IMG/VR virus record: IMGVR_UViG_3300013121_000037 | Span: 1 to 64,000 of that record | DNA from: a virus | Lineage: Duplodnaviria > Caudoviricetes | Length of the DNA stretch: 64,000 nucleotides | Strand: one strand, 5' to 3' | Shown here: positions 3,831 to 60,223 of the stretch, piece after piece | Layout: each line of letters opens with the position of its first letter | How positions within the stretch are numbered: the stretch's first letter is position 1 | The notes under the pieces: generated by a model | The model's database searches: none | What the model was told of the DNA's origin: nothing | The model's input: the letters and a program-made list of their open reading frames with translations, nothing else | Made by a program: the position numbers and the translations under genes

Positions 3831-3937
3831 ATCTGCTACCCCACGGTATTGCTGGCCAGTCAAAGCAAAGCAACCGCAAGAGTAGAAGATGGGAAAGTCT
3901 TAAAGCAAACGAAGTGTGCAGTCTAAGGTGAGCAAAA

Positions 3938-4660
3938 CTAGACAGTAGCATTTTGCGCAGCAACCTGCCGGGCATGGCGCAGACAGGCATCCGAAAGGTT
4001 TGCCAGTGCCTGGTCGCGCGTCGCAGGCCAGGTCCACTCACATTTTTCCTGACTGGTGGTTACCAGGATGTTGTACAAGACTTCAGGCAAGTGATTATTC
4101 ACTTGCCTATGTTCCTGCTCCCAGAAGAATGCCCAGTATTGCCGGTTGGATCGCTCTGTCAAAAACGGTTCCTTGTCGCTCAACCAGACCTTTTGTACCG
4201 GGCATTGCTGGACAATGGCCGGACCATGTTCCAGCCAGTCGCCACACAGACAACGCACCATTTCGACAAAACCACGGCAAAACCGGCAACCAACGACATA
4301 CCCGGCATACTGATACCGTACCAGGGCAACTTCGGGCAGATACTGCACTGGCAACCACGGCCCCGGCAGGTCACACCATTGCCGACAGTACTGCTGCAAC
4401 AACTCACGCTCACGCTGCCGCAACCGGCACCAGATACAGGGACGGTCGTTTTCCAGCAAACGGCGGCATTCGCACAATTCCCGATAGCGCGGGTTGGTTT
4501 CCTGCCAGGCAGTCAACCGGGCAATCTCACACTGCACCCGGATAAACTCGGCACGCTCTGGCTGTCCGTGTTCCTCCAGCCAGTCGGCAAAAATGAGGCG
4601 TGGCGCGTCAGCAGCGGGATCGTCCAGAATGGCTGCCAGCAAACCGACTTGCTCGGTCAT
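3938..4660 (-). CDS. TIGR02996 domain protein (copy 1)
   Basis: LLAAILDDPAADAPRLIFADWLEEHGQPERAEFIRVQC; stop codon lies inside 33-bp repeat. Confidence 0.85.
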   Translation of the reverse strand: MTEQVGLLAAILDDPAADAPRLIFADWLEEHGQPERAEFIRVQCEIARLTAWQETNPRYRELCECRRLLENDRPCIWCRLRQRERELLQQYCRQWCDLPGPWLPVQYLPEVALVRYQYAGYVVGCRFCRGFVEMVRCLCGDWLEHGPAIVQQCPVQKVWLSDKEPFLTERSNRQYWAFFWEQEHRQVNNHLPEVLYNILVTTSQEKCEWTWPATRDQALANLSDACLRHARQVAAQNATV

Positions 4661-4711
4661 CGTCTTTTCTCCAACACACTGCACAAAACTAGACAGTAGC
4701 ATTTTGACCAG

Positions 4712-5530
4712 TTACGGTTTGCCCAGTAGCAAATCCAGCACCCAGCAACCACGGTAGTGTGCCGGCGACAGCAACAGGAAACCAGTGCCGCCACAGTTGG
4801 CGCAGTCAATCCAGTCCTGAACCACATCCACACCATAACCACGCTGGATATTCGATCGTTTGCGGTCCTGGACCACTTTGGGACGCTGACGGGTTACTCT
4901 GGCCTTGCCGGGAAACCCCAGCAGGTGCCCCTCATGGCACGCCGGACACCACGGCGGTTCCCGCAGATGAGTCAGGATGTCCACCCGATCACAACCCGCT
5001 TCCTCAAGCGCATCCGCCAGGATGGGTAACTGCTCCCAGTCGCGATTGTCGTAGATGGCTTTCGCCAGCGCTGGCACGGTGCCATCCCGCCAGGCCAGCC
5101 AGCGCGTTAGCGGCGGTTCAACCCAGTCCACAATGTGCCCTTCCGGCGTCTGTGTTACCCGCCGCAGTTGCGGACGCCGAAAGGGATTGCCCACAATTTC
5201 CCGCAGCAGTGCCGCACGGACAGCACGCGGCGCATGGGCAACACTGGGATGCGCCCAGCGCAGTGCCCATTCCGTATCACGATAATCCGGGATTACCGTG
5301 GGAACTGTTTCCGCTAAACAACCTGCTGCTTCGTTCCTATCAGCGTACTCAAGAGTTAAACCATCCGCCAGACAGCAGGCGATGGCAAACATCCGGCACT
5401 GGCGGTAACTGATACGCCAGCGTACACCTGAGGTATGCCAACCATACTCTGGTCCCTCTGCTGGTTCGGGCAGCATCCAGTACAGCATGGCCTGCGGATC
5501 AGTGCTGGTCAGCCACTCCTGCTCGGTCAT
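4712..5530 (-). CDS. Gemmata-type multicopy hypothetical protein with inserted CxxC zinc finger (copy 1)
   Basis: MTEQEWLTSTDP...LLREIVGNPFR...LADALEEAGC...HYRGCWVLDLLLGK; paralog at 50228-51106. Confidence 0.7.
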   Translation of the reverse strand: MTEQEWLTSTDPQAMLYWMLPEPAEGPEYGWHTSGVRWRISYRQCRMFAIACCLADGLTLEYADRNEAAGCLAETVPTVIPDYRDTEWALRWAHPSVAHAPRAVRAALLREIVGNPFRRPQLRRVTQTPEGHIVDWVEPPLTRWLAWRDGTVPALAKAIYDNRDWEQLPILADALEEAGCDRVDILTHLREPPWCPACHEGHLLGFPGKARVTRQRPKVVQDRKRSNIQRGYGVDVVQDWIDCANCGGTGFLLLSPAHYRGCWVLDLLLGKP

Positions 5531-5563
5531 GGTGATTGCTCCATTTGCTGCGCAAAACCTTCT

Positions 5564-5902
5564 TCACAAAACAGTAGCATTTTGCCCAGCGCGATAACGC
5601 AGGCAGGCTGCACCACCCACCTCGAACTCGCGACAGATGTCGGGTCGATGCTCGTAATGGCGGCAGCAGTGGGCGTCCTGGTCGTACCAGACACAGGGCG
5701 AACCATCTGCCGGTCCCTGCCAGTGCCCACTGTTGAGCCAGCGCTGGTAAGTGGTCTGCACATCGTCTTGCAGATGTGCAGGCAAGGTGGCGATGGTGCC
5801 GAAAACACGGTGGTAGGTGATCGGCAACCCCGCCTGCGTTTCACAGCACAACCCACACCCCTGGCAGGATACCACCAGCGGCAACTCAATTCTTTTGCTC
5901 AT
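5564..5902 (-). CDS. YkgJ-family CxxCxxCC cysteine-cluster protein
   Basis: CQGCGLCC...CVWYD...CRHYEHRPDICREF. Confidence 0.8.
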   Translation of the reverse strand: MSKRIELPLVVSCQGCGLCCETQAGLPITYHRVFGTIATLPAHLQDDVQTTYQRWLNSGHWQGPADGSPCVWYDQDAHCCRHYEHRPDICREFEVGGAACLRYRAGQNATVL

Positions 5903-6489: not shown

Positions 6490-6553
6490 GACTCGCCCCC
6501 AATAAAAGCAGGTGGGCAAAACTAGACTGTTCACTTTTGCCCACCTGAACCTA

Positions 6554-6964: not shown

Positions 6965-7045
6965 CGGTGCGTCTCCTCGCTAACAGGATGCGTGCCCGAG
7001 TGGCAGGTGTTGCAACCACCTGCCACTCATCGCTTTGTCTAGTAG

Positions 7046-7671: not shown

Positions 7672-7962
7672 GTGCCAATCACTCCAAGAAAAAGCCATCC
7701 CAGAGCAGACGTTGAACCTGCCAGTCGGCACCAGCCAACCGTTGCCTCGACACGCAATCTGGGAGGTGCTTCCCTTACTGGCAATTCTAATGCCAATTAC
7801 GTGCCAATACCATTCGCTAACCACTGCGCAAAAGTAGACAGTTGCATTTTGCCCGGTACTGTACACCAATACAGTGTTGTGCGCTGGAGAGGTTTACCGT
7901 AGAATCTATCCCGCTGGTTGAGGATTGAGGTGTTGAGAAAAAGCAAGCGGGGTGAGCAGAAC

Positions 7963-8487: not shown

Positions 8488-8545
8488 AAGCGCACCCTCT
8501 CCGCAGTTACGGGCAAAATCAACCTGGTCCGACATGCATTGCTGG

Positions 8546-10573
8546 CTACCCCGTCAATCGTAAATCCCCCCGATACCACTTCACTCGCTCCTGCCAGTGC
8601 TGTTCGGCCCGCTTTCGGCGGTCCCGCAGCACCTGGTCAGTAGTGGGTGCAGAGTGGAAAGAGGGATAGTTAGATTCCGGTGTGGAGTGGTCTGGGTCTG
8701 ACTGGTGGAGTCGCAACCCGGGTGTGGCGACAGCGGCAAACTCGATGATGAGTCCGCAAATATAGTGATTGCCGATACCCGTCTCCTCACCGGGATCACG
8801 AAAGCCTCTGCGCACCGGCATCAGGATGCCCACCTCCACCAGCATCCGGCGAATGGCCACCTGATGATTGGCATAGTTGGCGATACCCACCATCTCCAGC
8901 AACCTGCCCAGATAGGTCAGGGAAAGTTCGTGATACTGTTCCACGTTGGCACAGACCAGACGCAGCAGATCCTCTGCCTGCTGGCGGGAACAGTGGGCGG
9001 TGAGCATGATGGTTGGTAGCAGTGATAGCATAAATGGTGTCCACACAATTTCCCGTGCTGGTGCGGGTTCATGTTTTCCTTTGGCCCGGTGCCAGGTCGA
9101 TGGATCCAGCACCCGGAAACCACTCTGCTGCCAGGCATCGGCAGCATGCTCTAACTTCTCGGTCGAACCTTCCGGGTCAGACTGGTAACCGTTGTTCTGC
9201 CAGATCGCGGTGGCAGTGTTGTTGACCACCCGCTCCAGTTCCGGCAGGCCACCGTTGTTCCCGGAAAGGCGGTCGCTGAACGATTTGTGGGGCAGGTCGT
9301 TCAGAAAACCCAGGATGGCCGTTACCGCTTCTTCCTTGCTCTCGCCCTGTGCCCAGGCCATGCGCAGGGCCACCACCAGATACTTGCCTAAACTGTCCGG
9401 TTCGGCCTGCAACTTACCGGTGAGAAAATCCACAATGACCTGCGCACAGCGGCCCTCCAGTCTGGGCATGTTGCCCATGCCGCTGGCTGCTGACTGGTCA
9501 AAAGTAGACAGTCGAGTTTTGCGCAGCGGTGGACTGTCCGGGCAGTTGGAACAGGCAGCCAAAAGTTCCTGCTCCACCACGGTCAGGTTGCACGGTGACC
9601 GGTTCGGGTTGGTGAGCCAGGTCCAGTACGCGACGGCGTCATGGGCCAGATAGTCCACCTTGTGGCGGTCCTCACCCTGGCCCGCAAACCGGTAAGCGGG
9701 AATTTTTGGGACAAGCAACTGGTCGATGATGGCGGGTCGGGTGGGGAAGAGTGGCAGAAACACCGCCTGCAGGTTATCGGGATAGATCTCGACACCAGCC
9801 AGCCCGGGACAGTTTCGGCGCAGGTCGCCCACCCACTCCTGTACCTGCTCTAGGCGCCACAGTTCGGGCAGGACCAGGCCAACATGGCAGCTGCCATTGC
9901 CCGGATTCAGATTGGCGATATGGGGTGCCAGGTCGGCATGGTAACTTTGCAGGTAGGTCAGGATGGATAGCACCCGCTCACAGTGCCAGGTGGCTTCCAC
10001 CGCGCCGCCGTGGCGGTCGATGTCGAGCAAAAGGTGCCGGGTTGCCCAACCCTGCCGCACCCCCTCGTGTGCCAACCCCTGGCGATGCCGCCGCAGGTCC
10101 AGAAACCCGCTGACCGTGCGAACCTCCCGCCCCTGCTCGTCATAGAGGCCGCGAATGTGCTGGCGGTCACTGCCCACCTTCCAGAGATGCCTGAGTAATT
10201 CCCACGCCTCACCCTGGCGATACTGGTCGATGGGAACCACACTGCTCGCGGCATAGAGGTTGACCCAGGTGGCCTGAGCGGAGTGTTCGAGGTGCTGTAT
10301 CTGCTGGAGGTCGGCAGCGGTGGGTGGTGCGGCAGTATTGAGTCGGTAGCGCAGGTCCCGAACGGTGGCCGCTGGGACAGGTGCTTCGGGACAGCGGCGC
10401 CAACCGGTGGGCCACTCGTGCAGCAGCAGCAACTGGCCACTGGAGTCACCAGTAACCCGCTGACCGGCCTGCAGCCAGTCCAGACGGGTACGCCCCACAG
10501 ATTCCGCGGCCCGTGCCGAGAAAAAACCTGGTTGACCTGTTGACGTTGGGAGGGGGATGATTGTAAGATTCAT
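8546..10573 (-). CDS. probable AEP-type primase-polymerase / replication protein
   Basis: hhhDhD (LLLDID), sxH (GNGSCHV) and VEIYP motifs in N-terminal half; contains in-frame 33-bp repeat. Confidence 0.55.
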   Translation of the reverse strand: MNLTIIPLPTSTGQPGFFSARAAESVGRTRLDWLQAGQRVTGDSSGQLLLLHEWPTGWRRCPEAPVPAATVRDLRYRLNTAAPPTAADLQQIQHLEHSAQATWVNLYAASSVVPIDQYRQGEAWELLRHLWKVGSDRQHIRGLYDEQGREVRTVSGFLDLRRHRQGLAHEGVRQGWATRHLLLDIDRHGGAVEATWHCERVLSILTYLQSYHADLAPHIANLNPGNGSCHVGLVLPELWRLEQVQEWVGDLRRNCPGLAGVEIYPDNLQAVFLPLFPTRPAIIDQLLVPKIPAYRFAGQGEDRHKVDYLAHDAVAYWTWLTNPNRSPCNLTVVEQELLAACSNCPDSPPLRKTRLSTFDQSAASGMGNMPRLEGRCAQVIVDFLTGKLQAEPDSLGKYLVVALRMAWAQGESKEEAVTAILGFLNDLPHKSFSDRLSGNNGGLPELERVVNNTATAIWQNNGYQSDPEGSTEKLEHAADAWQQSGFRVLDPSTWHRAKGKHEPAPAREIVWTPFMLSLLPTIMLTAHCSRQQAEDLLRLVCANVEQYHELSLTYLGRLLEMVGIANYANHQVAIRRMLVEVGILMPVRRGFRDPGEETGIGNHYICGLIIEFAAVATPGLRLHQSDPDHSTPESNYPSFHSAPTTDQVLRDRRKRAEQHWQERVKWYRGDLRLTG

Positions 10574-10638: not shown

Positions 10639-10856
10639 TGCCTTTTCAGCACTTTACCCCACAGCCATTTCCCAGTTCCAGCACTCGCGGAAACCCGGAT
10701 TGATAGCGAAAGTTGTGCCATGCAACCGTAGTGAACAGGTGGTTACTGCGCAAAAGTAGACAGTTGCATTTTGCGCAGCAGGCGATTGCGGACACGGCAC
10801 AGGCGCTGTACCCTGACTGGTGGGGTGAGAAATTTCTACCTGTCGAGGGTGTGGTC

Positions 10857-13431: not shown

Positions 13432-13455
13432 TCCTGCTGCGCAAAACTAGACTGT

Positions 13456-16296
13456 TTAGTTTTGCGCAGTTGCTTCATTGTTACGCCTGCTCTGATGCCG
13501 CTGCACCACGGAAGGAGCGCGGTTCTCAACTCCTGGCATCGAACCACGCACACCGCTGCTTTGTCCCAGTTTGCCCTTGAGATCACGCAGTTCCTTGCCA
13601 TTGTCCTTGAGGGTGCTCAGGATTTCCTTCAGCACTCCCAGGATTTCCCCGGTGTTGAGGCCCCGGCCAGCCCCACCTTGCGTATCACGGAACAGGTCAC
13701 TGCCCGCCAGGCCCACCCGCCGCTGCTCCAGCAGAGTGCCGGACGAACTCAGACGCGCCGCTGGTGGCAGCGGCCCACCACCGCTGCTGGCCACTCCAGT
13801 CACAGCGTCAGTCAGTGCTGCGGTCACTGGTTCTGCCACCACCCCGCCAGCAGCAGCAGCACCTGGAGCAGATACCGGTGCTGGTGTCATGGTAGCGGGT
13901 GCCGCCGCTAACCGTGGTGTGGGTTGTGCTGCTACTGGCGTGCTGGTAGGTATTTGCACACGACCAGGGCGCTGCCCGGCCATCTGAACAACAGACGGTC
14001 CAACGCGGTCAGGCAGGCCACCAGCACGCCCATGATTGGTAATAGCCGGGACAGTTAGCGCTGCTCGTTGTGGCCGCACAGTGGCGGTCTGTTCAGAAGT
14101 GCCAGGGGTAGCACTTGCCAGTGTTTTCGGCAACGGCACCTGACCTGGAATTGTGCTGGTGTCGTGAGCAACCCGTCGTGCGGACTGGTGTTCTACTGCG
14201 CTGGTGGGTAGGGTAACTGTCGGCACTGGCACGGAAGCAACGCCGCTGGCGTCAGAAAACTGCGCTGGCACTGGTGCTGGAGTCAACAATTCCGGAGCGG
14301 TTAGTGATGTTCGTGGTGGCGCACCTACCTGTTCGCCAGCAGCAACCACTGCTGGCCGATCCACGACTGTATCTGTCGTGTCGCTGGCAGGGTGCTCCAG
14401 CGCAGTGGTGGTGGCCAACCTGCCAGGCGTGCGTGCCGATTCATGGTTTGACTCTCCAGTTACCTGCCCCGGCAAGCGGAATGGACTGCTCTCTGGCCAG
14501 GAAGAACCAGCAGAAACGGTCAACCGCTGTGGTTGAAGTGCTTCAGTCGCGACTCCCGGTTCTTGCTGAGTAGCAACCACACGCTCACCCGGATCGACCA
14601 CCGCTTGCTGCGCTTGACCGCCCGTATCAGTCGTCCCTGCCGCATACCGGTGTCTGGGGTCCAGTGGATCGGGATTCAGGTTCTCGGCATGCTTGATCTG
14701 GGTGGGTTCAAAGGCAATCACCACCTGATGCTCGTCAACGCCCGGAACTTTCTGACCGGGACGTGCCCCGAACTGTCCCTTGTGGGTGATACCATCAAAC
14801 CCTTGCGACTGCAGCCACTTTTTAGCCTGGGTTTTGCTACCAAAACCACCCTGTTCTGCAGCACCGCTCAGTTTTTCGTACAGCCATTTTCCAGTTGGCT
14901 GGGCATCCGGATTATCCTGTCCCTGAAACTCACGGGTAAGCGCTGTGCTAATCTCCTCTGGCAGTTTGTCGTACAGGTTTTTGGGCAACGGTGCGTCAAT
15001 GTCGAACGGATTCTTGACACGCAGGTAAGCCGGGAGTACATGCCCTTCCGGTTCCGTAAACAGGTCGGTGGTACTGGCGCCGTAGGTGGTCTGCTTGAAA
15101 CCTATCCTGTCAACAGGCCGAACCGAGTTGGACTGGGAGGTAACTACCCTTTCCAGATCGGACAAATCCTCTGCTCGCTCCAGCAGTTTCAGTCGCTCTA
15201 AAGCATCCCCCCATCTTTTTTCGATGCCGTATATCACGTCTTCCAGGTGAGCGTATCTTTTGTAAAGTTCCTGGTCACCACCAGGATTGTCGCTAGTTAT
15301 GGAGTCCTTGAACGCAGCATACGCGGCAATTTGAGCAGTTTTGGTAGCAGCAATTTTGGGCAACGCTTGCGCCTGCGCAGACTTCAGTATTTCCCTGAGT
15401 CTTTCCTTCGCCACTGCTGGCGGAACCAGCCACTCCTTCACACCAACAGATTGCGTCAGGCCACTGCTACGCTTCTGGTAATCCCTGGCGATTTCTTCGC
15501 GGTCTGTAAAGTAGAATCCTGGTCCATACAGCAGGTTTTCTGGATTACTCAGTTTTTCCAGATCAAATTTTTCAAACTCGTCCCACGGCGAACCGTGAAA
15601 CATCTTGCGCGGTTTACCTTCCTCCGTGACAATCTTGCTGTCACCAAACCACGCCCGTTGTGCTGGCGAGAGATTGTCCACCCGCTCGCCAGGGTCCACC
15701 ACGGCCCGCTTCCCAGCACCGGTGTCAGTGGTGCCTGCCGCAAAGCGGTGCGTGGCCGGATGCGTGGCATCGCTCTGACGCTGCTGCAGTTCCGCAGTGG
15801 CAGCCGCGACGGCCAGCGGTTCCAGTGCTGGCGGCACCTGTCGTGTTTTCTCAGCCAGGTCCCGGGGCAACACCACCGAATGCGGTGCCAGGTCCGCCAG
15901 CACCGGTTTTGGTCCCACATCCCGCTGGCCCCCACGCATATCCCGCACCCGTTCCTGTGGAGCAGGTGGTTCCAGGTGAGCACTGCTTATGCCAGCGGGT
16001 GGTGGCTCCAGTGTGGCAGTTGTGTTCAGCCAGTCGGACAAGCGTTCAGGATGAACCAGCAACGGCGATTCGTCGGGAGTGACCGCAGAGGACAGACGCT
16101 CCGAGGGGAAGGAACGCAGCAGTGCGGCCAGTGCCGGCCCAGGCATTCCTGAATTATCCGGTGGTGCCTGGGTGGGCAAACTGAGGCGCTGCTGGTCAGG
16201 AATTTTCTCGGGAAGTGCGAGGTTTTTTCGTGGCATGCGCTCACCAGTGTGACTTGGCCTGCGCCCGGTTTCGCGCCGCGGCATCGGTGAACTCAA
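13456..16296 (-). CDS. tape-measure-position protein carrying an ART-PolyVal-like ADP-ribosyltransferase domain
   Basis: WFGDSKIV...MFHGS...GPGFYFTD...PAYLRVKNPF...GFDGI...IAFEPTQIK; located just after tail chaperones. Confidence 0.65.
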   Translation of the reverse strand: MSSPMPRRETGRRPSHTGERMPRKNLALPEKIPDQQRLSLPTQAPPDNSGMPGPALAALLRSFPSERLSSAVTPDESPLLVHPERLSDWLNTTATLEPPPAGISSAHLEPPAPQERVRDMRGGQRDVGPKPVLADLAPHSVVLPRDLAEKTRQVPPALEPLAVAAATAELQQRQSDATHPATHRFAAGTTDTGAGKRAVVDPGERVDNLSPAQRAWFGDSKIVTEEGKPRKMFHGSPWDEFEKFDLEKLSNPENLLYGPGFYFTDREEIARDYQKRSSGLTQSVGVKEWLVPPAVAKERLREILKSAQAQALPKIAATKTAQIAAYAAFKDSITSDNPGGDQELYKRYAHLEDVIYGIEKRWGDALERLKLLERAEDLSDLERVVTSQSNSVRPVDRIGFKQTTYGASTTDLFTEPEGHVLPAYLRVKNPFDIDAPLPKNLYDKLPEEISTALTREFQGQDNPDAQPTGKWLYEKLSGAAEQGGFGSKTQAKKWLQSQGFDGITHKGQFGARPGQKVPGVDEHQVVIAFEPTQIKHAENLNPDPLDPRHRYAAGTTDTGGQAQQAVVDPGERVVATQQEPGVATEALQPQRLTVSAGSSWPESSPFRLPGQVTGESNHESARTPGRLATTTALEHPASDTTDTVVDRPAVVAAGEQVGAPPRTSLTAPELLTPAPVPAQFSDASGVASVPVPTVTLPTSAVEHQSARRVAHDTSTIPGQVPLPKTLASATPGTSEQTATVRPQRAALTVPAITNHGRAGGLPDRVGPSVVQMAGQRPGRVQIPTSTPVAAQPTPRLAAAPATMTPAPVSAPGAAAAGGVVAEPVTAALTDAVTGVASSGGGPLPPAARLSSSGTLLEQRRVGLAGSDLFRDTQGGAGRGLNTGEILGVLKEILSTLKDNGKELRDLKGKLGQSSGVRGSMPGVENRAPSVVQRHQSRRNNEATAQN

Positions 16297-17420: not shown

Positions 17421-17576
17421 TGCCTCTCTCCTCTATCTGGAATCTGCCCCGGCAGATCTGTCAACAAAGGTCTGTTCCAGATAGCGAAGATGGCATAAGC
17501 ACCCGTCCTGAATCCAACGGATTGCCAGCAGCGATGTCAGGCACTGCGCAAAAGTAGACAGTCGCATTTTGCGCGG

Positions 17577-18104: not shown

Positions 18105-18406
18105 GCTGGCATTGTGCCAGCAGATGGCGTCCCAAAGCGAAAGCAGCGGGTTGGATATGGGATATCCCATATCCAACCCGCTGGTGGTTCAGCGGGGGTC
18201 ATGCTCGCAGTGGTTGCCCAGCGCCAACTTGCTGGTTGCGGCCAGGTTAGCTATGGCAGAGTGATAGACGCCACGGTTCGCCAGTTCGTACAACCGCTCT
18301 GCCAGTCGAGCGAGAACCACCCAATCGGCAGACTCGAGCGCGGCCGGGATCTCCACCGAGGCCAACCGCTGCCCTTCGCTCTGGATTTCCTCAATAGCAC
18401 GACTCA

Positions 18407-19116: not shown

Positions 19117-19181
19117 CGTGCTGCGCAAAACTCGACAGTTTAGTTTTAACCAGTAGTGTACGCCAATACACCAGAAAATCG

Positions 19182-20862: not shown

Positions 20863-20895
20863 CTGCGCAAAATGCGACTGTCGCATTTTGCGCAG
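20863..20895. repeat. 33-bp palindrome, fully symmetric example
   Basis: CTGCGCAAAA-TGCGA-CTG-TCGCA-TTTTGCGCAG. Confidence 0.95.
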
Positions 20896-22844: not shown

Positions 22845-23055
22845 GGCGCTGCCTCTCTGGTTCCAGAAAAACAGCGAGGTCGCAGCGTTGCCGCCGCGAC
22901 CCCCTTACAGGCCACGAAGGATAAGGCTTCTCCCGGGTAATTAGGCCGGTTCAGCCTGCTGAAGCCGCAACGGCCACGTTGCGACCCCGCCAGATCTTTT
23001 TCAACTCTTCTACTCACTGCGCAAAATGTAACTGTCTACTTTTGCGCAGCACCGT

Positions 23056-26488: not shown

Positions 26489-26623
26489 GATTCTTGCACC
26501 ATATCCAGGTGACAGAGTTCAGGGTACGGCACCCCGGCCACGTCACTGAGAGTGCAGAAAAGGAAGTTCCTGTTGCAAATGGCTTTGAGACAGGTCGGCA
26601 GTACAGAGGAGAGGTGGGCAAAA

Positions 26624-27361
26624 CTAGACAGTAGCATTTTGTGCAGTGGCGGCTTTGGCCCACTGGAGACAGGCGTCACTCAACGGTGACAGTGCTGCTG
26701 TTTTGGTGGGCCACCAGATAAAGCGCGATTCTGTTTTTAGCCAGACAGCGTACAGTTCTGGCGGCAATCCGGCTAAATCACCAGGATCTGTACTGTAGAA
26801 GGCCCACCAGTAACCTTCAGTCCCGGTCAACTCAGACATCGCCCAGGCAGGTTCTACATCGCTTAAAGTGACACGTTCTACTGGATGCTGCCGCACGATG
26901 GCCGGTCCGTGCCGAATCCAATCGTCTTTGGGGCAGGCGACGGACTGAATAAAACCACGGCGAAAGACTGCCACGTCCAGCCAGGAAACACCCAGCAAGA
27001 TACCGGCACTGGTAAGCGGTTCCAGCCAGCGAAAGGCATTGGACTGGTACGCAAAGTCAGCACAGGGATTCGACAGCAGTATTGCTACACGTTGCCGCAG
27101 TTTGTCACGCTGCCACCACAAGTCGCGACGTTTGCCTTCGCGACAGCGCGGACAGGGAACGGTGGGATCTGGCAGGCACTGGCACTTGCCCAGCGTCACT
27201 ATCTCGTCATCCACCTGCGCCAGTTCGTACTGTACCCGGATGAACTCGGCGCGGTCCGGGTCGCCGTTCTCTTCTAACCAGTCGGCATAGATCAACCGCG
27301 GCGCATCCTCTGCTGGTGCGTCCAGAATGGCTTGCAGCAATGCCTGGTGCTGTGAGATCAT
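26624..27361 (-). CDS. TIGR02996 domain protein (copy 2)
   Basis: LLQAILDAPAEDAPRLIYADWLEENGDPDRAEFIRVQ; stop inside 33-bp repeat. Confidence 0.85.
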   Translation of the reverse strand: MISQHQALLQAILDAPAEDAPRLIYADWLEENGDPDRAEFIRVQYELAQVDDEIVTLGKCQCLPDPTVPCPRCREGKRRDLWWQRDKLRQRVAILLSNPCADFAYQSNAFRWLEPLTSAGILLGVSWLDVAVFRRGFIQSVACPKDDWIRHGPAIVRQHPVERVTLSDVEPAWAMSELTGTEGYWWAFYSTDPGDLAGLPPELYAVWLKTESRFIWWPTKTAALSPLSDACLQWAKAATAQNATV

Positions 27362-30956: not shown

Positions 30957-30989
30957 CTGGTCAAAACTAGACAGTCTAGTTTTGACCAG
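30957..30989. repeat. 33-bp palindrome, fully symmetric example
   Basis: CTGGTCAAAA-CTAGA-CAG-TCTAG-TTTTGACCAG. Confidence 0.95.
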
Positions 30990-39463: not shown

Positions 39464-39589
39464 CGTCTCGTCTCCTCTGACAGATGCCTGCCAGAGTAGA
39501 CGAAAACGGAATCCAGTGAGAAATGCGGTCCGAGATGAGCACTGCGCAAAATGTAACTGTCTACTTTTGCGCAGTGCCAGTGGAATGGG

Positions 39590-45811: not shown

Positions 45812-45957
45812 TTGACGGCAGACCGGGAATGTACCAGAATGGACGGCGAACAAGGGGGAAATGAGCGAGCCAGAGGTGCCACCCGCCTCTGGCTCGCTGG
45901 CGTTTTATTCACAATTCCTGGTTGCAACTGGCAGGTCACTGCGCAAAATGCTACTGT

Positions 45958-46650
45958 CTACTTTTGCCCAGCACTGTCTTTGGCCCACTGGAGACAGGCC
46001 GCGGACATGATTTCTATGGCCGCAACCCTGGAATGGTATTCTCTGGGAAGTTGCTTACGCAACCGGATCAGATACTGTTGTAATGGTTCCGGGATAAAGA
46101 ACTGCTGCCCCCACCGTGCGGAGAAAAGCCAATAATACATATCCAATTCAGGGTTATTACTTTCTGGACCAGTGAACGGTTCCTGGCTGCCACTTAGGCG
46201 GTGCCGCTCTGCTGCCCCCAGTTGCCCCATCTGAAACGGTTCCTTGTCACTCAGCGTGACTTCCTGCACCGGTTGCTGCCGCACGATGGCCGGACCATGC
46301 TGGAGCCAGTCAGAGCAGGTACAGGTGACAGAGCAAACGAACCCACGAGAATATGTTGACGTGAATCCTGGTAGACGCACACCCCAGCGACAAAAGTCTT
46401 TCCCTAACAACTGTTGTTCACGCATCCGCAGGCATTTTTCCTCGCGGTCAGCATCCTGGTTACCCGTCGCCACAGGTTGCCCATCTGGCGGCACCCCGAA
46501 CCGCGCCGCCAGTTCGCACTGCACCCGGATAAACTCCGCCCGCTCCGAATCACCATGTTCATCCAGCCAGTCCGCATAGATGAGACGTGGAGCATCCTCG
46601 GATGGTTCCTCCAGGATGGCTGCCAGCAATGCCTGCTGCTGTTCGCTCAT
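45958..46650 (-). CDS. TIGR02996 domain protein (copy 3)
   Basis: LLAAILEEPSEDAPRLIYADWLDEHGDSERAEFIRVQC; stop inside 33-bp repeat. Confidence 0.85.
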   Translation of the reverse strand: MSEQQQALLAAILEEPSEDAPRLIYADWLDEHGDSERAEFIRVQCELAARFGVPPDGQPVATGNQDADREEKCLRMREQQLLGKDFCRWGVRLPGFTSTYSRGFVCSVTCTCSDWLQHGPAIVRQQPVQEVTLSDKEPFQMGQLGAAERHRLSGSQEPFTGPESNNPELDMYYWLFSARWGQQFFIPEPLQQYLIRLRKQLPREYHSRVAAIEIMSAACLQWAKDSAGQK

Positions 46651-47121: not shown

Positions 47122-47648
47122 AATCTCATCGCTAGTCCCGTCAACTCAATCCAACCCCGGAATATCCCAACGGTTCAATGCCGCTTCCAGTTCCTGTATC
47201 CGGGCCTGCAAGCGGGCATTCTCGTCCCTCTCTGCTGCCAGCAGGCGAATGTACGCAGGCAACGCCATGCGTGCGAGTGCCATGAAAACGCCATCCTCAT
47301 GACGATGCACACTGGGAGGTGTGGTACGCAGCATCCCTGACTGGTCAGGATTGGTGCGATGCAGTGGACCTGGTCCATACAGGTACACGTTGGCCGTGAC
47401 GTTAGACCACGCTACCTGCCACGGTCCCGGTATCGCCATTACCTGCACTCCCTGTCACTGCGCAAAACTCGACTGTCTACTTTTGCCCACCTGCTATGAC
47501 CATCGCACCCGTCTGTACCTGCGCCGCAGTCGCTTACCCTGCACTGGCAGGACGCGGGCAGGTTTGTCCCACTGGCGACAGCGGCGAATCTCTGCCACTC
47601 GCCGCCGCGTTTCTGCCAGTTTGTACCCGCCACGGGAGCGTGTACCCA

Positions 47649-49518: not shown

Positions 49519-50227
49519 GGTTCACCTTCCAGGTAGACGAATACCTAACAGCGTTAGCACCAGCACCACCGGGGCCAGCAAGGACAGCGACAACCAGAAC
49601 AGCAGCACGGCGTACCAGGGGGCCAGACCACCACCCAGCACCTTGCCCATGTCCGTGCGAATCTGCTCGAAATGGCGGGCCAGCAGGGTTGCCAGCATCA
49701 GCACCAGGCCACAGTACACCCCGCCAAGAAACCACCACCACTCAGGTACCACCACCACCTCCGTTTGTTCTGTCCGCCAGCACGCTGGCACCGCGTAACC
49801 GCTGTACTTCCTCATGCAAAACATGCAACTCAGCACGAGCAATAATAACAGCATCCTGCAACCGCTCCCGATCGGCGTTAGCCAGTGACTCCCGTTCCTT
49901 GTGCAGGTTGACCTGCGCACGCAGCGTTTGCACCTCTGCCTGGAGTTCATGGCACTGCCGGACCACGGCATTCTTCGCCTCGGTCACTGCGGCCAGTTGC
50001 TGCGAAGTTTCAGAGTGACAGGCAAAGCAGATGCACTCTCCCTGCGTCCCCTGCAAGCGAAGCCCCGAGCAAAGTAAACAGCGTCTGTGCATGTTTCACT
50101 CCTCCACTGATCAAAATGCGACAGTCTAGTTTTGCGCAGTTGACTGTATCAGGGTGTTTCCATTAGGGGTCAAATCGCACCTGAAACAGGTCCGCTGCGC
50201 AAAACTAGACTGTTGCATTTTGACCAG

Positions 50228-51106: not shown

Positions 51107-51164
51107 CGCTGACTTCTCCACTGCGCAAACGTAGACTGTCGAGTTTTGCACACCTCTCACCAAT

Positions 51165-53259: not shown

Positions 53260-53381
53260 AGAGAAACGGCGTGAATTTGTGGTTATTCATCACCCGCCTG
53301 TCCCATGATGAATACTGGCCATTTTACCAACTGGTGCTTGCCATGTCACACCGCACAAACTGCTGCGCAAAATGCTACTGT

Positions 53382-54119
53382 CTACTTTTGCGCAGTGGTT
53401 GGTTTATCCTGTCGGCACTGCGCACAGCAGACGTGGTCACCGAATACCAGATCGGCGCGGGGATAGTCCGCCCCACAATAACAGCAGTGTTCAATCTGCC
53501 CGTCCAGTCGCCAGAGTGCTGCCGCCACCCATTCCGGTGTGCGTCGGGAGCGGGACTCTGGCGAGAAACCGTACCACGTTTCCAGGTACATTTCGCACTG
53601 CCGCCGCAACTGACCGATTTCGTCCAGGGTCAGTTGATGCAGATTCACTGTTGCTGGAGAACACGCTGGAGTGGGTTGCTGGCGACCGCGGTCTTCAGGT
53701 GGGCGTTTGCTACCCGGTGGGTTGCGCCGGCCAAAGTCACCTTCGCTGCCATCGGTCTGCCAGGACTCGTGGTAGTAGGGTAAATCCGGGTCTGGCATCA
53801 TCAGGAGTCGCACAGGTGGCGTCCCCAGGATGGCCAGGTAACCAGCATGGTCATCAATCAGGATGTCGATATGGTGCTCCTGGCAGACCACCGCCTTGCA
53901 GCGTTCGCCATGAGTTTCGTAGTCGGCACAGATGACTTGCTGGGGCGGAACAGCAAACCCGTTATCGTGGCAGAAAGTGGTGGCTTTCTGGTGTGGCTTC
54001 ATGTCGCTGATAACGAACACCTCGAGCTCAGAGGAAAGCAGCAGGACTTGCACCAGCGGTCGGAAGATGTCCGGGTATTTGGACAGGCACCCGCCAATGT
54101 CGAAAGCAATCCGGGTCAT
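53382..54119 (-). CDS. HAD-superfamily (5'-nucleotidase-like) protein
   Basis: IAFDIGG motif I variant, K and ILIDD motif IV. Confidence 0.55.
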   Translation of the reverse strand: MTRIAFDIGGCLSKYPDIFRPLVQVLLLSSELEVFVISDMKPHQKATTFCHDNGFAVPPQQVICADYETHGERCKAVVCQEHHIDILIDDHAGYLAILGTPPVRLLMMPDPDLPYYHESWQTDGSEGDFGRRNPPGSKRPPEDRGRQQPTPACSPATVNLHQLTLDEIGQLRRQCEMYLETWYGFSPESRSRRTPEWVAAALWRLDGQIEHCCYCGADYPRADLVFGDHVCCAQCRQDKPTTAQK

Positions 54120-54187
54120 CTGGTTTTCCTCTTCCTGCGTGCTGCGCAAAAGTAGACTGTTGAGTTTTGACCAGTGGGTGGTATCAC

Positions 54188-55242: not shown

Positions 55243-55925
55243 GACGAAATTCCTCTCTGGATAGTCAGGATAAATCGCGCCGGGCATCCTGGGGATGGTG
55301 CAGTTCCTGGCACTGCGCCGCCCGCTGCTGCAAAACCTGCCAGTATTCCGTGGTCCCGGGCAAATGTTGGGTCGGTTCCGGTTTGCTGGCCACGACATTG
55401 TCAAGCCCTGCCCCTCGCATGTTGCTCCGGCAAACCAGATGGCCAAACCGTGTCAGTACCGCAGGATCGTGATAACAGGTCCAGCACAATTGCCGGGGCC
55501 GATTGGCCACCTTCTGCTGACAGTTCCGGCACTGCGGTTTCACTGCGGACAACTCCATTTTGAAAAACGTCGGCACCAGGCACCCAGTACAACTATTTAT
55601 GGCGGATTTCCTGCAAAATTCGGTTGGCAATCCATCCCAAAGATTTGAACAGTTTGCTCCGGTCGCCGTACAGGTCTGGATAAAGCACCGTATGAGCGAG
55701 GTAGGTGCTGGCACATACCTCGCAAAACCAGAAATCATCATGGTTTCCTTCTGCCCAGCGCTCCGTCCCCTCACCGCGATAGTTTTTCAGCGGGATGCCG
55801 CGAAAACCACAGCACTCACATTCTCCTGGTGACTCTGTAGTTTGTTCCTGCTCACCCATGACAAAAACTCCTCTCCACCATTCACTGCGCAAAAGTAGAC
55901 AGTTGCATTTTGCGCAGTGAGCAGG

Positions 55926-57056: not shown

Positions 57057-58970
57057 GATAATTCCTTGCCGGTTTTGAGTCGTTCCAGGTCGCGTTCCGC
57101 CCGCAAGAGTGTGTCCACCCAGGGTTCGCCTGGCTGCTGCTCGGCCAGGTCGTGGTGCCAGACCGAACCACCATAGCCGTAGTCGAGTACAAAACTCCAG
57201 CGCAGAGTATGACTGGACAGGTGCAACCGCACCGCCACGATTTGCCGCGCCCGCCGGTGAGATTGGTTGAGTTGCACCGCCAGTTTTCCCTGCGCTTTCA
57301 GGAGGGATGTCAGTCGCTGTTCAATGACAGCCTGACTCCAGGGAGCATCCTGGTAACCGTAATGCGGAAACCAGATACGCTGCTGGCCACCCACCCGGAT
57401 GTCGAACGCCTCCCGCCAGGCGTCCACCGAGTCGTTGCCAATGTCCAAAAGGGCGTAGTGAAAACGCCGCTTCAGGTCGCCCAGACTGACCACGGGCCGA
57501 ATGCTGGTCATGCCAGTGCAGGTGGGTTGGCACGATAACAGCGCCTTGACAGCGTGGGCCACCCAGGGTTGCCGCTGGCGCTCGGGCGTGTCCAGTTCCT
57601 GGGCCGAGCGCACCATCCAGGCCAGCACCCCAAGTGCCTGCTCAACGCTGTAGGGATAGGGCCAGTAGCAACCAGGGCGCACCAGTTCCACGAAGTGACA
57701 GGTAACACAGCGTTTGAGTTTGCTGAGCGCTGGCATCACTCCATCCTCTCTGCCAACCGGGTACACTCGGGTTGCGACCAGGCCACCCGCCAACCAAATA
57801 GAGACTTTGCATGCTGCCTTCCTGATAGCACATGCCATACCACCACCACAGCATTTCCCAGAGGAGAGTGCTAAATCCAGAAGTGCTCACTGCGCAAAAT
57901 GCAACTGTCTACTTTTGCCCACTCACTCAGCACCCTGCAACTCCAGCAGGCGCAGCACTCCCGCCGAATCCAGGTGCTGTTCCAGCAGGAAAATCACCTC
58001 TGGCAATTCCTGCTGCGGCACCAGTCGCAACACCTGCGCCGCCACTTCTGCCGGACTGCCCACCAGCACACCAGTTGCCTCTCTGCCGCCGAGCAGCGGC
58101 GCAGGTGACTTCTGGACCACTGCTACCTCTTTCGCTGGCAGATGGGCATCCCGCAGCGCCAGGAACTCTGCAATTGCCTCTGCACTGACTACCTTGCCCA
58201 GCAAACACCGCCGCCATCCCGACTGCAATGGCCAGGACACCCCAAGCACTTCCAGCTGCTGCCGGTTCCAACCACCATTCCGACTCATCCCCTCTTCCAG
58301 CAACTCCCGCGTTACCACTGGCATACCAGCACCTCACTGGGCAAAAGTAGACAGTTGCATTTTGCGCGATTTGTGGAAATTTTCGATGAAATTTGTGCGG
58401 ATTTCCGTGCGCACTTCTAGCGCTAGCTATTTCTTTGTCTTCTGGTCTGAGAAGACCTGTCGTGTTATCTAGCACATCATGTACCACTGAGAAGAGTAGT
58501 GGTCTGCTCCCAAAATCCTTCGGGTTCGCAGGCGGGCGCACCGACCCCGTGCGGAGTCGGTGCAAGTGGTCAAAATCCCCCTGGGACGGCAGTTCGGTTC
58601 GACCTTCCGGGGACCGGTTGGGGTTGCCAACCATGTGCCAGGACAGTGCTGCCTGGCGTGGTTTTTTAACGCTGTTCACCCGGAATTCGCACCCGTCACA
58701 GCGTCCATCGTGAGCGTTTGTCAGACCGTTTCGGCAGGCACATCTGACCGATGGAATACGAACAACCTTGACCCTTGGCGCTGTACTTGTTTGGACTTCA
58801 CCAGTCCCTTTGCCTCGGCTGTCGGTGGGTCAGATACCGTTTCCCAAATGGTGGGTGTCGTTTTGACTTCAGCAGTATCCCGCACCCGGCAACAGGCTTT
58901 TGGGATGTGCTGGTGGTCAAAATGCGACTGTCGCATTTTGACCACTGGTTAGTCGTGGCCAGAAACAAAA

Positions 58971-59052
58971 TCAGCCATTGTTTCCAGCAGTGTGACCTGC
59001 GAGTCCACCCTCACGACAGAGGTGATTCGCAACTGCTGGAAACAATGGCTGA
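58971..59052. other. long hairpin with perfect 21-bp outer stem
   Basis: TCAGCCATTGTTTCCAGCAGT...ACTGCTGGAAACAATGGCTGA with additional inner pairing. Confidence 0.8.
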
Positions 59053-59108
59053 GAGTGTATTCTCAGTGTCGTGATGCTGCTTTTCAAGTGCCGGTCAATA
59101 GCACAGAA

Positions 59109-59855
59109 TCAGAATTTACCCGAAGCGTCATCCCCGTGCAACCGACGCTGCTCTACAAAATCGATAATTTCTTTGGGCACGAACATGCCGGGCATGTAGT
59201 TGGTGCCCTGGTAACGAAACGGCAGCAGGACGCGGGTAACACCGTTCTCGGTGCGCAGGCAGCGTGCGGTTGGTTCGCGGCGCTCCAGTTCTGCCAGCAC
59301 TGCCGCTGCCTGCCGGTGACTGTACCCGGTCGCAATGGCCTCGGAGATACCATACTGCAACAGGCGTTTCAGTTGCATATCGCTGACACGCTCCCGCGGC
59401 GAAAAGGTAAACGGTTCATCCGCCTTCAGTTCTACAGGATTTCCGGATAACTCAGCAACGAGTTCCGCCAGGTTGCTGTTCTTTTCCTGTCGGACAGTGT
59501 TGAGCAACTCTTCCGTCAACTCATACGCCCGCTTCTCTGTCAGGTTGGTGGCAGTAACCCCCAATTGTTTCAGCAACTCCATCTGCCACTTCAGTGCTGG
59601 TCGCTGGTCGCTCAGGCCGACTGCAACCGGTTCCGGTTTCTTACCGAAACTGACCACATGCGGCACTGCCACGGTTTTCTCGGGTGCTGGTTTCAGCCAG
59701 GTCGTTGCCAGTACACTGTCCAGCAGTTCGCCGTTGCGGCCATGCCAGAGACAGCGGCAGGTTGGTCCGTCCCGGTGAACTTCGGCCACCGTCATCCGGG
59801 GACCGCCGGACTTCAGTTGTACCACGTCACCCACCGCGAATTTCACTTCAGCCAT
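59109..59855 (-). CDS. YodC/DUF2158 N-terminal domain protein
   Basis: FAVGDVVQLKSGGPRMTV. Confidence 0.65.
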   Translation of the reverse strand: MAEVKFAVGDVVQLKSGGPRMTVAEVHRDGPTCRCLWHGRNGELLDSVLATTWLKPAPEKTVAVPHVVSFGKKPEPVAVGLSDQRPALKWQMELLKQLGVTATNLTEKRAYELTEELLNTVRQEKNSNLAELVAELSGNPVELKADEPFTFSPRERVSDMQLKRLLQYGISEAIATGYSHRQAAAVLAELERREPTARCLRTENGVTRVLLPFRYQGTNYMPGMFVPKEIIDFVEQRRLHGDDASGKF

Positions 59856-60223
59856 CGACTCACCTCGCTTCTGCTGCGCAAAACTCGACTGTCTACTTTT
59901 GCCCACCTTGATCAGGAATGCGATTCACTGCTGCGCAAAATGCAACTGTCTACTTTTGCGCAGTTACTCCAGTTCCCAGCCAGCGGCAACCAGTTCGTCA
60001 TGGGTGATGACTGCCACTTTCAGCAACTGGCAGGTGCAGACAAAGAAACCGCTGGACACAACATAGGTCACCGCCTCGATCCGAAACACCCGGCCAACCC
60101 CTGGAAATGGCACATTATCGAGTTGGCAGGCCAGTCCTGGGAAGGGCGGGAACGGCAAACGGATACGCTGTTCGTAGACGTGTCCCGTGGGCGCCACAAT
60201 TTTGCAGTGAACAGGGAAGCCGC

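What the first reader, a model, noticed from the sequence alone, without database searches (positions are those of the whole stretch)
3928..59963. Half-sites are mixed combinatorially rather than co-varying
Seen: outer arms (CTGCGC, GTGGGC, CTGGTC, GTGAGC, CTGGGC, CTGCAC and others) and inner 5-mers (GTAGA, CTAGA, CTCGA, TGCGA, TGCAA, TGCTA, TGTAA, GTAAA, CTAAA) come from a small vocabulary. They are paired left/right in many mismatched combinations, e.g. 37223 = CTGGTC/TGCGA with GTGGGC/CTAGA. Only 20863, 30957 and 58913 are fully symmetric. Inference: this argues against pure RNA-hairpin selection. It fits crossovers at the central 3 bp that reassort half-sites, or independent recognition of each half by a protein.
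Basis: partly seen in the sequence, partly recalled or inferred. Interest (0 to 1): 0.72.

Follow-up and report, generated by a model that had tools for sequence, protein, structure and literature searches.

The report
Mosaic 33-bp palindrome family in phage
An uncultured phage carries about 58 copies of a 33-base near-palindrome at its gene boundaries; its small variable blocks are shuffled among copies but its centre has a fixed direction, so the sites were probably patched together by copy-to-copy exchange, not by crossovers at the centre or by RNA-hairpin selection.

Summary
The window holds 32 clean copies plus 3 variants of one 33-bp element, and the 112-kb virus record holds 53 plus 7. 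Its form is outer6-AAAA-inner5-C[A/T]G-inner5'-TTTT-outer6'. Chance would give 0.01 matches.

The small vocabularies, the 37223 example and the three fully symmetric copies all check out.

There is no compensatory covariation. Across the full stem, 74.6% of cells pair against 74.8% in shuffles. The inner arms pair less often than chance predicts. So pairing selection on an RNA hairpin is not what shapes the family.

The mixing is not free, however. Oriented by the central base, a GTAG-type arm sits on the A side and a TGNNA-type arm on the T side in 30 copies, against 3 the other way. The two inner arms are linked across the centre. The outer arms are unlinked from the inner arms.

The breakpoints of the mosaic therefore lie mainly in the invariant A4/T4 tracts. 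Central crossovers are not supported.

Best reading (confidence 0.4): a REP-like element recognised as DNA, kept as a family and patched by exchange between copies.

Two contigs of a related phage carry a different 33-34-bp palindrome at the same two gene junctions. The function is unknown.

The parts
1411..1443 (-). Copy, core TGTAA-CAG-TTGCA (YY type), intergenic
3928..3960 (+). Copy, CTAGA|TGCTA core; the upstream ORF (TIGR02996-domain paralogue) ends at the TAG inside it
4679..4711 (+). Copy, CTAGA|TGCTA core; the stop codon of gene 4712-5530 abuts it
5547..5588 (.). Long variant: one inner arm replaced by a 12-nt insert (CTTCTTCACAAA), 2 nt upstream of the start of gene 4712-5530
6512..6544 (-). 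Copy with GTGGGC arms on both sides (XX type)
7824..7856 (+). Copy in a divergent region, 3 nt from the 14-bp palindrome 7860-7873 and 61 nt upstream of the double-HTH gene 7918-8487
9494..9526 (+). Copy inside the 650-aa ORF 8546-10498(-), read in frame as LRKTRLSTFDQ
10746..10778 (+). Copy, GTAGA|TGCAA core, at a strand switch
13437..13469 (-). Copy (XX type); the upstream ORF ends at the TAG inside it
17544..17576 (+). Copy, GTAGA|TGCGA core; a stop codon abuts it
19121..19153 (+). Copy in a divergent region, 3 nt from the 14-bp palindrome 19157-19170
20863..20895 (.). Fully symmetric copy (TGCGA on both sides)
23017..23049 (-). Copy, GTAGA|TGTAA core
26614..26646 (+). Copy, CTAGA|TGCTA core; the upstream TIGR02996-domain paralogue ends inside it
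30957..30989 (.). Fully symmetric copy (CTGGTC/CTAGA on both sides)
31380..31412 (.). Degenerate copy (centre CAA)
31956..31988 (-). Copy with GTGGGC arms on both sides, at a convergent junction
35531..35563 (-). Copy inside the 2295-aa ORF, read as VGKSKQSHFAH; its arm with one flank base, GGTGCGCAAAA, matches 10 of 11 bases of the XerC arm of E. coli dif
37223..37255 (-).
39542..39574 (-). Copy, GTAGA|TGTAA core, upstream of the 2295-aa ORF
41553..41595 (-). Degenerate in-ORF copy with a frame-preserving insertion
42909..42941 (-). Copy inside the 929-aa ORF, between the Mu-type portal domain (aa 77-450) and the ADP-ribosyltransferase domain (aa 760-924)
45939..45971 (-). Copy, GTAGA|TGCTA core; same core type as 26614 but inverted relative to the paralogous upstream gene
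47458..47490 (-). Copy, GTAGA|CTCGA core
50107..50139 (+). Copy; exception to the polarity rule (Y-CAG-X)
50195..50227 (-). Copy; a stop codon abuts it. Its upstream gene is a paralogue of the gene upstream of 4679, and it differs from 4679 by point changes, including the central base
51121..51153 (-). Copy 11 nt after the large-terminase stop; relative L003 has a different palindrome here
53363..53395 (-). Copy, GTAGA|TGCTA core
54142..54174 (-). Copy (XX type)
55885..55917 (+). Copy 8 nt after the sliding-clamp stop; relatives L076/L077 have a different 33-nt palindrome here
57890..57922 (-). Copy; a stop codon abuts it
58337..58369 (+). Copy, GTAGA|TGCAA core
58913..58945 (.). Fully symmetric copy (GTGGTC/TGCGA on both sides)
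59874..59906 (-). Copy, GTAGA|CTCGA core, 24 nt from the next copy
59931..59963 (-). Copy; a stop codon abuts it

Best explanation
The sites are copies of one dispersed quasi-palindromic DNA element of about 37 bp, broadly like a REP. It sits at gene and protein-module boundaries of an uncultured phage, probably one that infects a planctomycete.

Each copy has an invariant, dyad-symmetric scaffold: TG..CAAAA....AC-W-GT....TTTTG..CA. Four short variable blocks lie between the invariant tracts: left outer arm, left inner arm, right inner arm and right outer arm.

Shown: each block takes a few discrete alleles. Alleles are tightly linked within a block and unlinked between the outer arms and the inner arms. 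The two inner arms and the central base form a directional 13-bp core, typically GTAGA-CAG-TNNCA.

Inferred: the scaffold is recognised as DNA by a paired or two-domain protein of the phage or its host. The family is maintained and patched by exchange between copies, either gene conversion or ectopic recombination. The phage encodes a Rad52-type annealing protein and a Xer-like tyrosine recombinase that could do this. The exchange junctions lie in the invariant tracts, mainly A4 and T4. This would produce both the apparent mix-and-match within the genome and the family-wide change of sequence seen in a related phage.

It is neither an RNA hairpin kept by pairing selection nor an intrinsic terminator. 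What the element does for the phage is not known.
For: Non-uniform conservation. Fifteen of the 37 aligned columns are invariant in all 53 copies and four more are at least 90% conserved, while the neighbouring variable columns are often only about 50-70% conserved. That is sequence-specific constraint, not simply recent copying.

The invariants are dyad-symmetric and the element occurs in both orientations relative to transcription: central A 35, central T 18. This is hard to square with sequence-specific RNA recognition.

No pairing excess overall, and a pairing deficit in the inner arms.

Block structure of linkage. Associations are strong within the left arm including 2 flank bases, within each inner arm and within the right arm. 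Outer-arm columns against inner-arm columns give 0 of 80 pairs at p<0.01. The AGGTGGGC arm differs from CACTGCGC at 4 linked positions, recurs about 9-12 times, and is joined to many different cores. It was therefore copied, not re-evolved.

Core types are scattered, not clustered: 4 adjacent same-type pairs against 3.0 expected.

Copies inside ORFs keep the DNA consensus at synonymous positions, although the flanking paralogous modules are only 32-37% identical as protein.

Related phage contigs have a different palindrome with the same geometry at the same two junctions. After the clamp stop: CTGCTCACCGTTTCAC-T-GTGAAGCGGTGAGCAG, 33 nt (clamp 62% identical). After the terminase stop: CTGCTCATCGTTTAACCGGTTAAACGATG..., cut by the contig end (terminase 84% identical). 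AAAA/TTTT is replaced by A[C/T]CG/CG[G/A]T on both sides. That is concerted change of the whole family.

A Rad52/22-type protein and one tyrosine recombinase are encoded.
Against: No binding protein has been identified. There is no ParB. The only clear HTH protein, the double HTH_3 gene 7918-8487, has a better candidate operator of its own: the 14-bp palindrome at 7860 and 19157.

The discrete vocabularies could also reflect a few functionally allowed words per block, with no exchange between copies.

There is a modest bias relative to transcription, which pure double-stranded DNA recognition does not predict. The central base is A in 35 copies and T in 18 (p=0.027). The 3' arm is canonical in 36 copies against 24 for the 5' arm. 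A stop codon abuts the element in 9 of 53 copies, p=7e-4.

The relative's two copies have complementary inner arms, as expected if hairpin or cruciform formation matters there.

With only 53 short sequences, the linkage tests have limited power.
Confidence: 0.4

Rival explanations
1. The elements are site-specific recombination sites for the phage's Xer-like tyrosine recombinase. The 10-11-bp arms bind the enzyme and the asymmetric 13-bp core acts as the overlap region. Genes and protein modules between sites are exchangeable cassettes, as in Acinetobacter dif modules or integron cassettes.
For: One tyrosine recombinase, 91311-92324(-), is encoded, with copies about 300 nt away on each side. 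Its best matches are XerD, XerC and XerA.

The layout, arm ending in AAAA / centre / TTTT-arm, 33 bp, resembles the single-recombinase sites difSL (31 bp, 11-bp centre) and difH (PMC5357621). The arm at 35531 with one flank base, GGTGCGCAAAA, matches 10 of 11 bases of the XerC arm of E. coli dif, GGTGCGCATAA (PMC3025954).

The left and right arms are not linked to each other, while the core behaves as a unit. This is the pattern expected if strand exchange happens at the arm/core borders.

Paralogous genes and in-frame protein modules begin or end at the sites. In the relative, a two-gene indel starts at its palindrome.
Against: A 13-bp centre is longer than any described tyrosine-recombinase overlap. 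The recombinase hits are far below the family cut-offs (59.6 bits against 329.6) and look like an ordinary phage integrase.

Seven copies share each of the two commonest cores. An active enzyme would therefore delete or invert essential genes.

The dif resemblance is 8-9 of 11 for the common arms, and I found it by recall. An earlier cassette-exchange reading elsewhere in this scan did not survive later checking.
Confidence: 0.15
2. The elements are selfish miniature mobile palindromes (REP/REPIN or MITE-like). A transposase encoded elsewhere spreads them, for example a host RAYT, and copies survive only where they are tolerated.
For: About 58 dispersed copies, with core sub-families scattered over the genome. 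The unpaired tetranucleotide GTAG, the hallmark of one REP super-family, is the commonest inner word, and GTAG REPs are reported from the PVC group (PMC3733652).

Copies lie just past stop codons or in frame in linkers, and all five in-ORF copies use the same tolerated frame. The family has been replaced wholesale in the relative.
Against: No Y1/RAYT gene is found in the record, though the record is only 79% complete. The element was not found in 185,579 species genomes, in JGI metagenomes or in IMG/VR.

GTAG lies inside the palindrome, not at its end. The lack of linkage between arms and core argues against simple whole-element copying. The absolute conservation of AAAA/TTTT suggests ongoing constraint.
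Confidence: 0.2
3. The elements act in the polycistronic mRNA as stem-loops placed just after stop codons. They would protect the upstream message, act as a processing site of the T7 RNase III kind, or uncouple translation of neighbouring genes.
For: Most copies start 0-30 nt after a stop codon and lie 10-30 nt before the next ribosome-binding site. A stop codon abuts 9 of 53 copies. Mean predicted stability is -13 kcal/mol. The outer stem shows a weak pairing excess. There is a modest orientation bias relative to transcription. The relative's palindromes are almost perfect hairpins.
Against: There is no compensatory covariation overall, and the inner arms avoid pairing. Thirteen copies fold weaker than -7 kcal/mol.

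About a third are in the opposite orientation, so the conserved core would be read as its complement. Copies at 7824, 19121 and 95130 lie in divergent promoter regions, not after genes.

No T-run follows the stem and the terminator scan does not call them. Canonical GC-stem plus T-run terminators stand next to copies at 45864-45898 and, beyond the window, just after the copies at 87168 and 96148. Rfam has no match.
Confidence: 0.15

Closest known systems
17-bp palindromic repeat of Cluster O mycobacteriophages (5'-TGTTCGGNNNCCGAACA; PMC4351075)
   Same: More than 30 dispersed copies per phage genome. Invariant inverted arms around a variable 3-nt centre. Mostly between genes, but some inside ORFs. 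No consistent orientation relative to transcription. Function unknown, presumed to be a protein-binding site.
   Different: The element here is twice as long. It has four variable blocks with discrete alleles and a directional 13-bp core. It lies tightly against stop codons. It is read in frame as a linker in large multi-domain proteins.
PeSLs of T4-type phages (promoter-early stem-loops; PMC2839356, PMC4122927)
   Same: Short conserved motifs at gene boundaries that act as portable homology for exchanging modules. Here, paralogous genes and protein modules start or end at the element, and an indel in a relative starts at its palindrome.
   Different: PeSLs combine a sigma-70 promoter with a working terminator. 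Neither was found here. PeSLs cluster in hyperplastic regions, whereas this family covers the whole genome, structural genes included.
REP/REPIN elements with RAYT transposases (GTAG REPs; PMC3733652)
   Same: A 20-40-bp imperfect palindrome, mostly just downstream of coding regions and sometimes inside genes, with sub-families and an unpaired GTAG.
   Different: GTAG lies inside the palindrome instead of at its end. No RAYT was found. The element sits in a phage, not a chromosome, and was not found in any searched bacterial genome.
Xer recombination sites, especially single-recombinase sites (difSL, difH) and plasmid dif modules (PMC5357621)
   Same: Two inverted arms of about 10-11 bp that end in an A-run next to an asymmetric centre. 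Total length about 31-33 bp. Arms resemble the XerC arm of dif. A Xer-like recombinase gene is present.
   Different: The centre is 13 bp, against 6-11 bp. There are about 58 sites rather than one or a few. No recombination has been shown. The recombinase looks like an ordinary integrase.
Stoperators of Cluster A mycobacteriophages
   Same: Dozens of copies of a short asymmetric site in the short gaps between genes of a temperate phage.
   Different: Stoperators are 13-bp non-palindromic sites, all in one orientation relative to transcription. Here the orientation is mixed, 35 to 18, and the site is a 33-bp quasi-palindrome.

Membership tests
RNA hairpin under pairing selection | More base pairing than column composition gives, with compensatory changes | tested here: not met
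   74.6% of cells paired against 74.8 +/- 0.7% in shuffles. Inner positions pair less often than expected. Only the outer 12 bp are weakly above the shuffles, reached by 7 of 500.
Intrinsic terminator | GC-rich stem directly followed by a T-run | tested here: not met
   The terminator scan calls none of the 11 copies in 40-60 kb. The 3' flank is mostly TGA or CAG. Canonical terminators lie beside some copies.
GTAG REP / RAYT system | GTAG at one end of the palindrome, outside the stem | tested here: not met
   GTAG is the commonest inner word, but it lies inside the palindrome between the A4 tract and the centre.
GTAG REP / RAYT system | An associated Y1 (RAYT) transposase gene | tested here: not met
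   PF01797 has no match in the record. The record is estimated 79% complete and the host is unknown, so absence is not proven.
GTAG REP / RAYT system | High copy number in a bacterial chromosome | tested here: inconclusive
   Exact and scaffold patterns found no genome with this family among the GTDB species representatives. The true host may not be represented.
Xer/dif-type recombination site | Two arms of about 11 bp around a 6-8-bp centre (11 bp in difSL) | tested here: not met
   The geometry is 10-11 + 13 + 10-11 bp. The centre is longer than any described.
Xer/dif-type recombination site | A cognate Xer-family recombinase | tested here: inconclusive
   One PF00589 protein is present. XerD, XerC and XerA are its best NCBIfam and PDB matches, but far below the cut-offs.
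Xer/dif-type recombination site | Recombination between sites | not testable with these tools
   No sequencing runs holding this phage were listed, so no population data were available.
Integron attC | R''/R' boxes (RYYYAAC / GTTRRRY) and a length of 57-141 nt (features taken from my own knowledge) | tested here: not met
   The element is 33 bp and has no such boxes.
PeSL | A composite of a sigma-70 promoter and a terminator stem-loop | tested here: not met
   None of the promoter-like or terminator-like sites called in 40-60 kb falls on an element.
PeSL | Insertions and deletions between relatives bounded by the motif | tested here: inconclusive
   One two-gene indel in relative L077 begins at its palindrome. 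No longer relatives could be obtained.
Dispersed operator sites (stoperators, Cluster O repeat, KorB OB sites) | Many copies of one invariant site, mostly in short intergenic gaps | tested here: met
   53 clean copies plus 7 variants. Fifteen of the 37 aligned columns are invariant.
Dispersed operator sites (stoperators, Cluster O repeat, KorB OB sites) | A cognate DNA-binding protein | not testable with these tools
   No ParB was found. The candidates are a double-HTH protein or an unknown protein.

The most novel reading that the evidence does not exclude
The phage uses its Xer-like recombinase on about 58 dif-like 33-bp sites as a genome-wide cassette-exchange system. The arms bind the enzyme and the asymmetric 13-bp core sets direction and compatibility. 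Because the site is 11 codons long and open in one frame, the same system would shuffle whole enzymatic domains in frame within the portal-linked multi-domain effector proteins.
Probability: 0.1. Interest if true: 0.85.

Novelty: new variant of a known kind. Interest (0 to 1): 0.55.

Why it matters
Dispersed palindromes at phage gene boundaries are known, but none has a settled function. This family shows internal population structure within a single genome. Four allele blocks are reassorted at invariant tracts, and the core has a fixed direction. A related phage has changed the whole family in concert.

This gives concrete, testable predictions about how such families are maintained: exchange between copies, as opposed to independent site evolution.

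The element is also translated as a linker between domains of very large virion-associated proteins. If exchange at these sites is real, it would be a simple route to in-frame domain shuffling and to phage mosaicism.

Tried and rejected
**Searches for the element elsewhere**
- The exact consensus pattern gave no hit in IMG/VR, JGI metagenomes or GTDB genomes.
- The invariant scaffold gave 5, 15 and 37 loci. None belongs to this family. Some belong to other palindromic families; see Noticed in passing.
- A 37-nt BLAST against GenBank phages gave only a chance 18-nt match. Megablast of 25 kb against phages gave nothing.

**Searches for relatives**
- A terminase search in IMG/VR gave nothing.
- Terminase relatives at about 54% identity (L001, L002, L004) carry no repeated palindrome.
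- The relative's palindrome pattern gave no hit in IMG/VR.
- Contig walking in the relative stopped at 3.7 kb.
- The search with the four-copy gene family found only distant planctomycete-type proteins.

**Sequencing runs**
- None was listed for window 50001-60000, and no RNA holder was listed. Read laying therefore could not be used.

**Other ideas checked and dropped**
- Rfam: no family matched.
- IS200/IS605 link: the two TnpB elements share no DNA with each other or with the repeat.
- Core types do not cluster among neighbouring copies.
- The idea that the four-copy gene family is a Q-type antiterminator rests only on a zinc-finger match, so I dropped it.

Full report
**What the DNA is.** The window is the first 64 kb of a 112,344-bp linear IMG/VR virus record, estimated 79% complete and 58% G+C. 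Nearly all genes are on the minus strand. The record encodes:
- a Mu-type portal fused to an ADP-ribosyltransferase domain, a large terminase and a sliding clamp;
- a 2295-aa multi-domain protein;
- two TnpB genes;
- one tyrosine recombinase;
- a Rad52-type protein.

The clamp's closest cellular homologues are from Gemmataceae. A three-copy gene family carries the Gemmata TIGR02996 domain. The host is therefore probably a planctomycete. This is an inference.

The scaffold CAAAA-N4-ACWGT-N4-TTTTG occurs 33 times in the window, against 0.01 expected. There are 32 clean 33-bp copies in the window and 53 in the genome. Seven more are degenerate or long variants, among them two with the same 12-nt insert. 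Those three are the only symmetric copies in the whole genome.

**No hairpin-type covariation.** I aligned the 53 copies as 37-mers, oriented by the central base.
- The full 17-bp stem is paired in 74.6% of cells, against 74.8 +/- 0.7% in shuffles.
- At the four variable inner positions, Watson-Crick pairs are fewer than independence predicts: 20 vs 25.9, 7 vs 15.9, 20 vs 21.5 and 8 vs 11.0.
- The outer 12 bp show a small excess, 85.5% against 83.4%, reached by 7 of 500 shuffles. The tool's own notes warn that related sequences can produce this without any structure.
- Predicted RNA stability runs from -2.3 to -28 kcal/mol.

**The halves are not mixed freely.**
- Oriented so the centre reads CAG, the left inner arm is GTAGA, CTAGA or GTAAA in 41 of 53 copies. 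The right inner arm, read as its complement, is TG[C/T]NA in 33 copies and CTCGA in 7.
- By class the counts are XY 30, XX 17, YY 3 and YX 3. The XY to YX ratio gives p=1.4e-6.
- The element therefore has a built-in direction. Its commonest cores are GTAGACAGTTGCA (7), GTAGACAGTCGAG (7), GTAGACAGTTACA (6), GTAGACAGTAGCA (5) and GTAAACAGTCGCA (4).
- The two inner arms are associated across the centre (p<5e-5; within XY alone p=0.0105).
- A column-by-column linkage table shows four blocks: left arm with two flank bases, left inner arm, right inner arm, right arm. Linkage is strong inside each block and partial between the two inner arms. Outer arms against inner arms give 0 of 80 pairs at p<0.01.

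A crossover at the centre would give the opposite pattern. The junctions of the mosaic lie mainly in the invariant A4 and T4 tracts.

**The blocks were copied, not re-evolved.** The arm AGGTGGGC differs from CACTGCGC at four linked positions. It recurs about 9-12 times and is joined to many different cores and to the other arm type. This calls for exchange between copies. A simple family tree of whole elements would not give it, and neither would repeated point mutation.

**Placement.**
- Most copies start 0-30 nt after a stop codon and end 10-30 nt before the next ribosome-binding site.
- A stop triplet abuts the element in 9 of 53 copies, p=7e-4. In seven copies the upstream ORF ends at the TAG inside it.
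- Copies also lie in divergent regions at 7824, 19121 and 95130.
- Five copies lie inside ORFs, all in the same frame. One falls at the portal / ADP-ribosyltransferase boundary.
- In the direction of transcription, the 3' arm is canonical in 36 copies and the 5' arm in 24 (17 against 5 discordant, p=0.017). The centre is A in 35 copies and T in 18 (p=0.027). All 12 copies whose 5' arm starts with G have centre A (Fisher p=0.0044).
- There is thus some polarity relative to genes, but a third of the cores are inverted.
- Two paralogous genes carry the same core type in opposite orientation at 26614 and 45939.

**Not a terminator.** No T-run follows the stem, and the scan does not call the elements. 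Canonical terminators stand beside three of them.

**Relatives.** Terminase relatives at about 54% identity have no such family. Two short Logan contigs from one study come from a closer phage, with terminase 84% and clamp 62% identical.
- Twenty-five nt after the clamp stop they carry CTGCTCACCGTTTCAC-T-GTGAAGCGGTGAGCAG, 33 nt.
- Just after the terminase stop they carry CTGCTCATCGTTTAACCGGTTAAACGATG..., cut by the contig end.
- Place, length and termini (CTGC.C ... G.GCAG) match the family here. But AAAA/TTTT is replaced on both sides, and the inner arms pair.

This is a family-wide, concerted change. It argues against the idea that each site evolves independently. It fits a family kept uniform by copying or conversion. 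In that relative, a two-gene insertion begins right at the palindrome. That is a single case.

**Candidate partners.**
- There is no RAYT and no ParB.
- The single recombinase is Xer-like only weakly.
- The arms do recall Xer sites. GGTGCGCAAAA at 35531 compares with the dif XerC arm GGTGCGCATAA. The arm-A4 / centre / T4-arm layout recalls difSL and difH. A 13-bp centre is unprecedented, however, so I keep this as a rival.
- A double HTH_3 protein (7918-8487) is encoded next to copy 7824. However, a separate 14-bp palindrome that occurs only twice, each time 3 nt from a copy, is a likelier operator for it.

**Verdict.** The inference against hairpin selection is supported. The central-crossover model is not supported. 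The family is a new variant of the dispersed phage palindromes, with a clear mosaic block structure and polarity. Its function is unresolved. Other first-stage notes on this genome describe the same family. None had been followed up.

Noticed in passing
window 7860-7873 and 19157-19170: A 14-bp palindrome, TGTAYTGGYGTACA, occurs exactly twice in the genome. Each occurrence is 3 nt from a copy of the 33-bp element, in a divergent region upstream of plus-strand genes. One of those genes is the double-HTH gene 7918-8487. It is a likely operator of a lysis/lysogeny-type switch.
   Followed up: partly
window 18144-18183: A perfect 40-bp palindrome with no spacer (CAGCGGGTTGGATATGGGAT / ATCCCATATCCAACCCGCTG) lies between two small minus-strand genes. 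It is unrelated to the 33-bp family. It could be an origin or a telomere-resolution type site.
   Followed up: no
window 9494, 35531, 37223, 41553, 42909: All five in-ORF copies are read in the same frame, as x-x-K-[ST]-[RK]-x-S-x-F-x-[QH]. They lie at module boundaries of very large proteins. The 929-aa ORF joins a Mu-type portal to an ADP-ribosyltransferase through one copy.
   Followed up: partly
window 44632-45705(-) and genome 72921-73940(-): Two unrelated TnpB (OrfB_IS605 plus Cas12f-like TNB) genes with no TnpA are carried in a phage. A strong 15-bp terminator hairpin at 45864-45898 lies upstream of the first.
   Followed up: partly
window 3938-4684, 26624-27361, 45958-46650; and 4712-5530, 50228-51121, plus 64142-65230 and 100110-101012 beyond the window: Two multi-copy gene families. 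One has three paralogues with the Gemmata TIGR02996 domain. The other has four paralogues of a very large planctomycete-type family of hypothetical proteins. Most are flanked by copies of the element. With the Gemmataceae-like clamp, they point to a planctomycete host.
   Followed up: partly
loci L040-L047, L060, L062, L063 (metagenome contigs); L019, L022, L027 and G001 (Kribbibacterium absianum): Unrelated sequences share the same invariant scaffold. One metagenome family reads ATGGCCAAAATGNNAC-W-GTNNCATTTTGGCCAT, has compensatory inner arms, and often sits near contig ends. A second palindrome, ATGTGCAAAAAGGGAC-W-GTCCCTTTTTGCACAT, occurs 6 times in one actinobacterial genome and, with compensating outer-arm changes, in several other taxa.
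   Followed up: partly
genome about 66700-66785 (beyond the window; locus L006 about 3700-3785): Directly after copy 66787 there are about five tandem 12-nt units (GAGGAAGAAATT). If translated, they would encode an acidic repeat.
   Followed up: no
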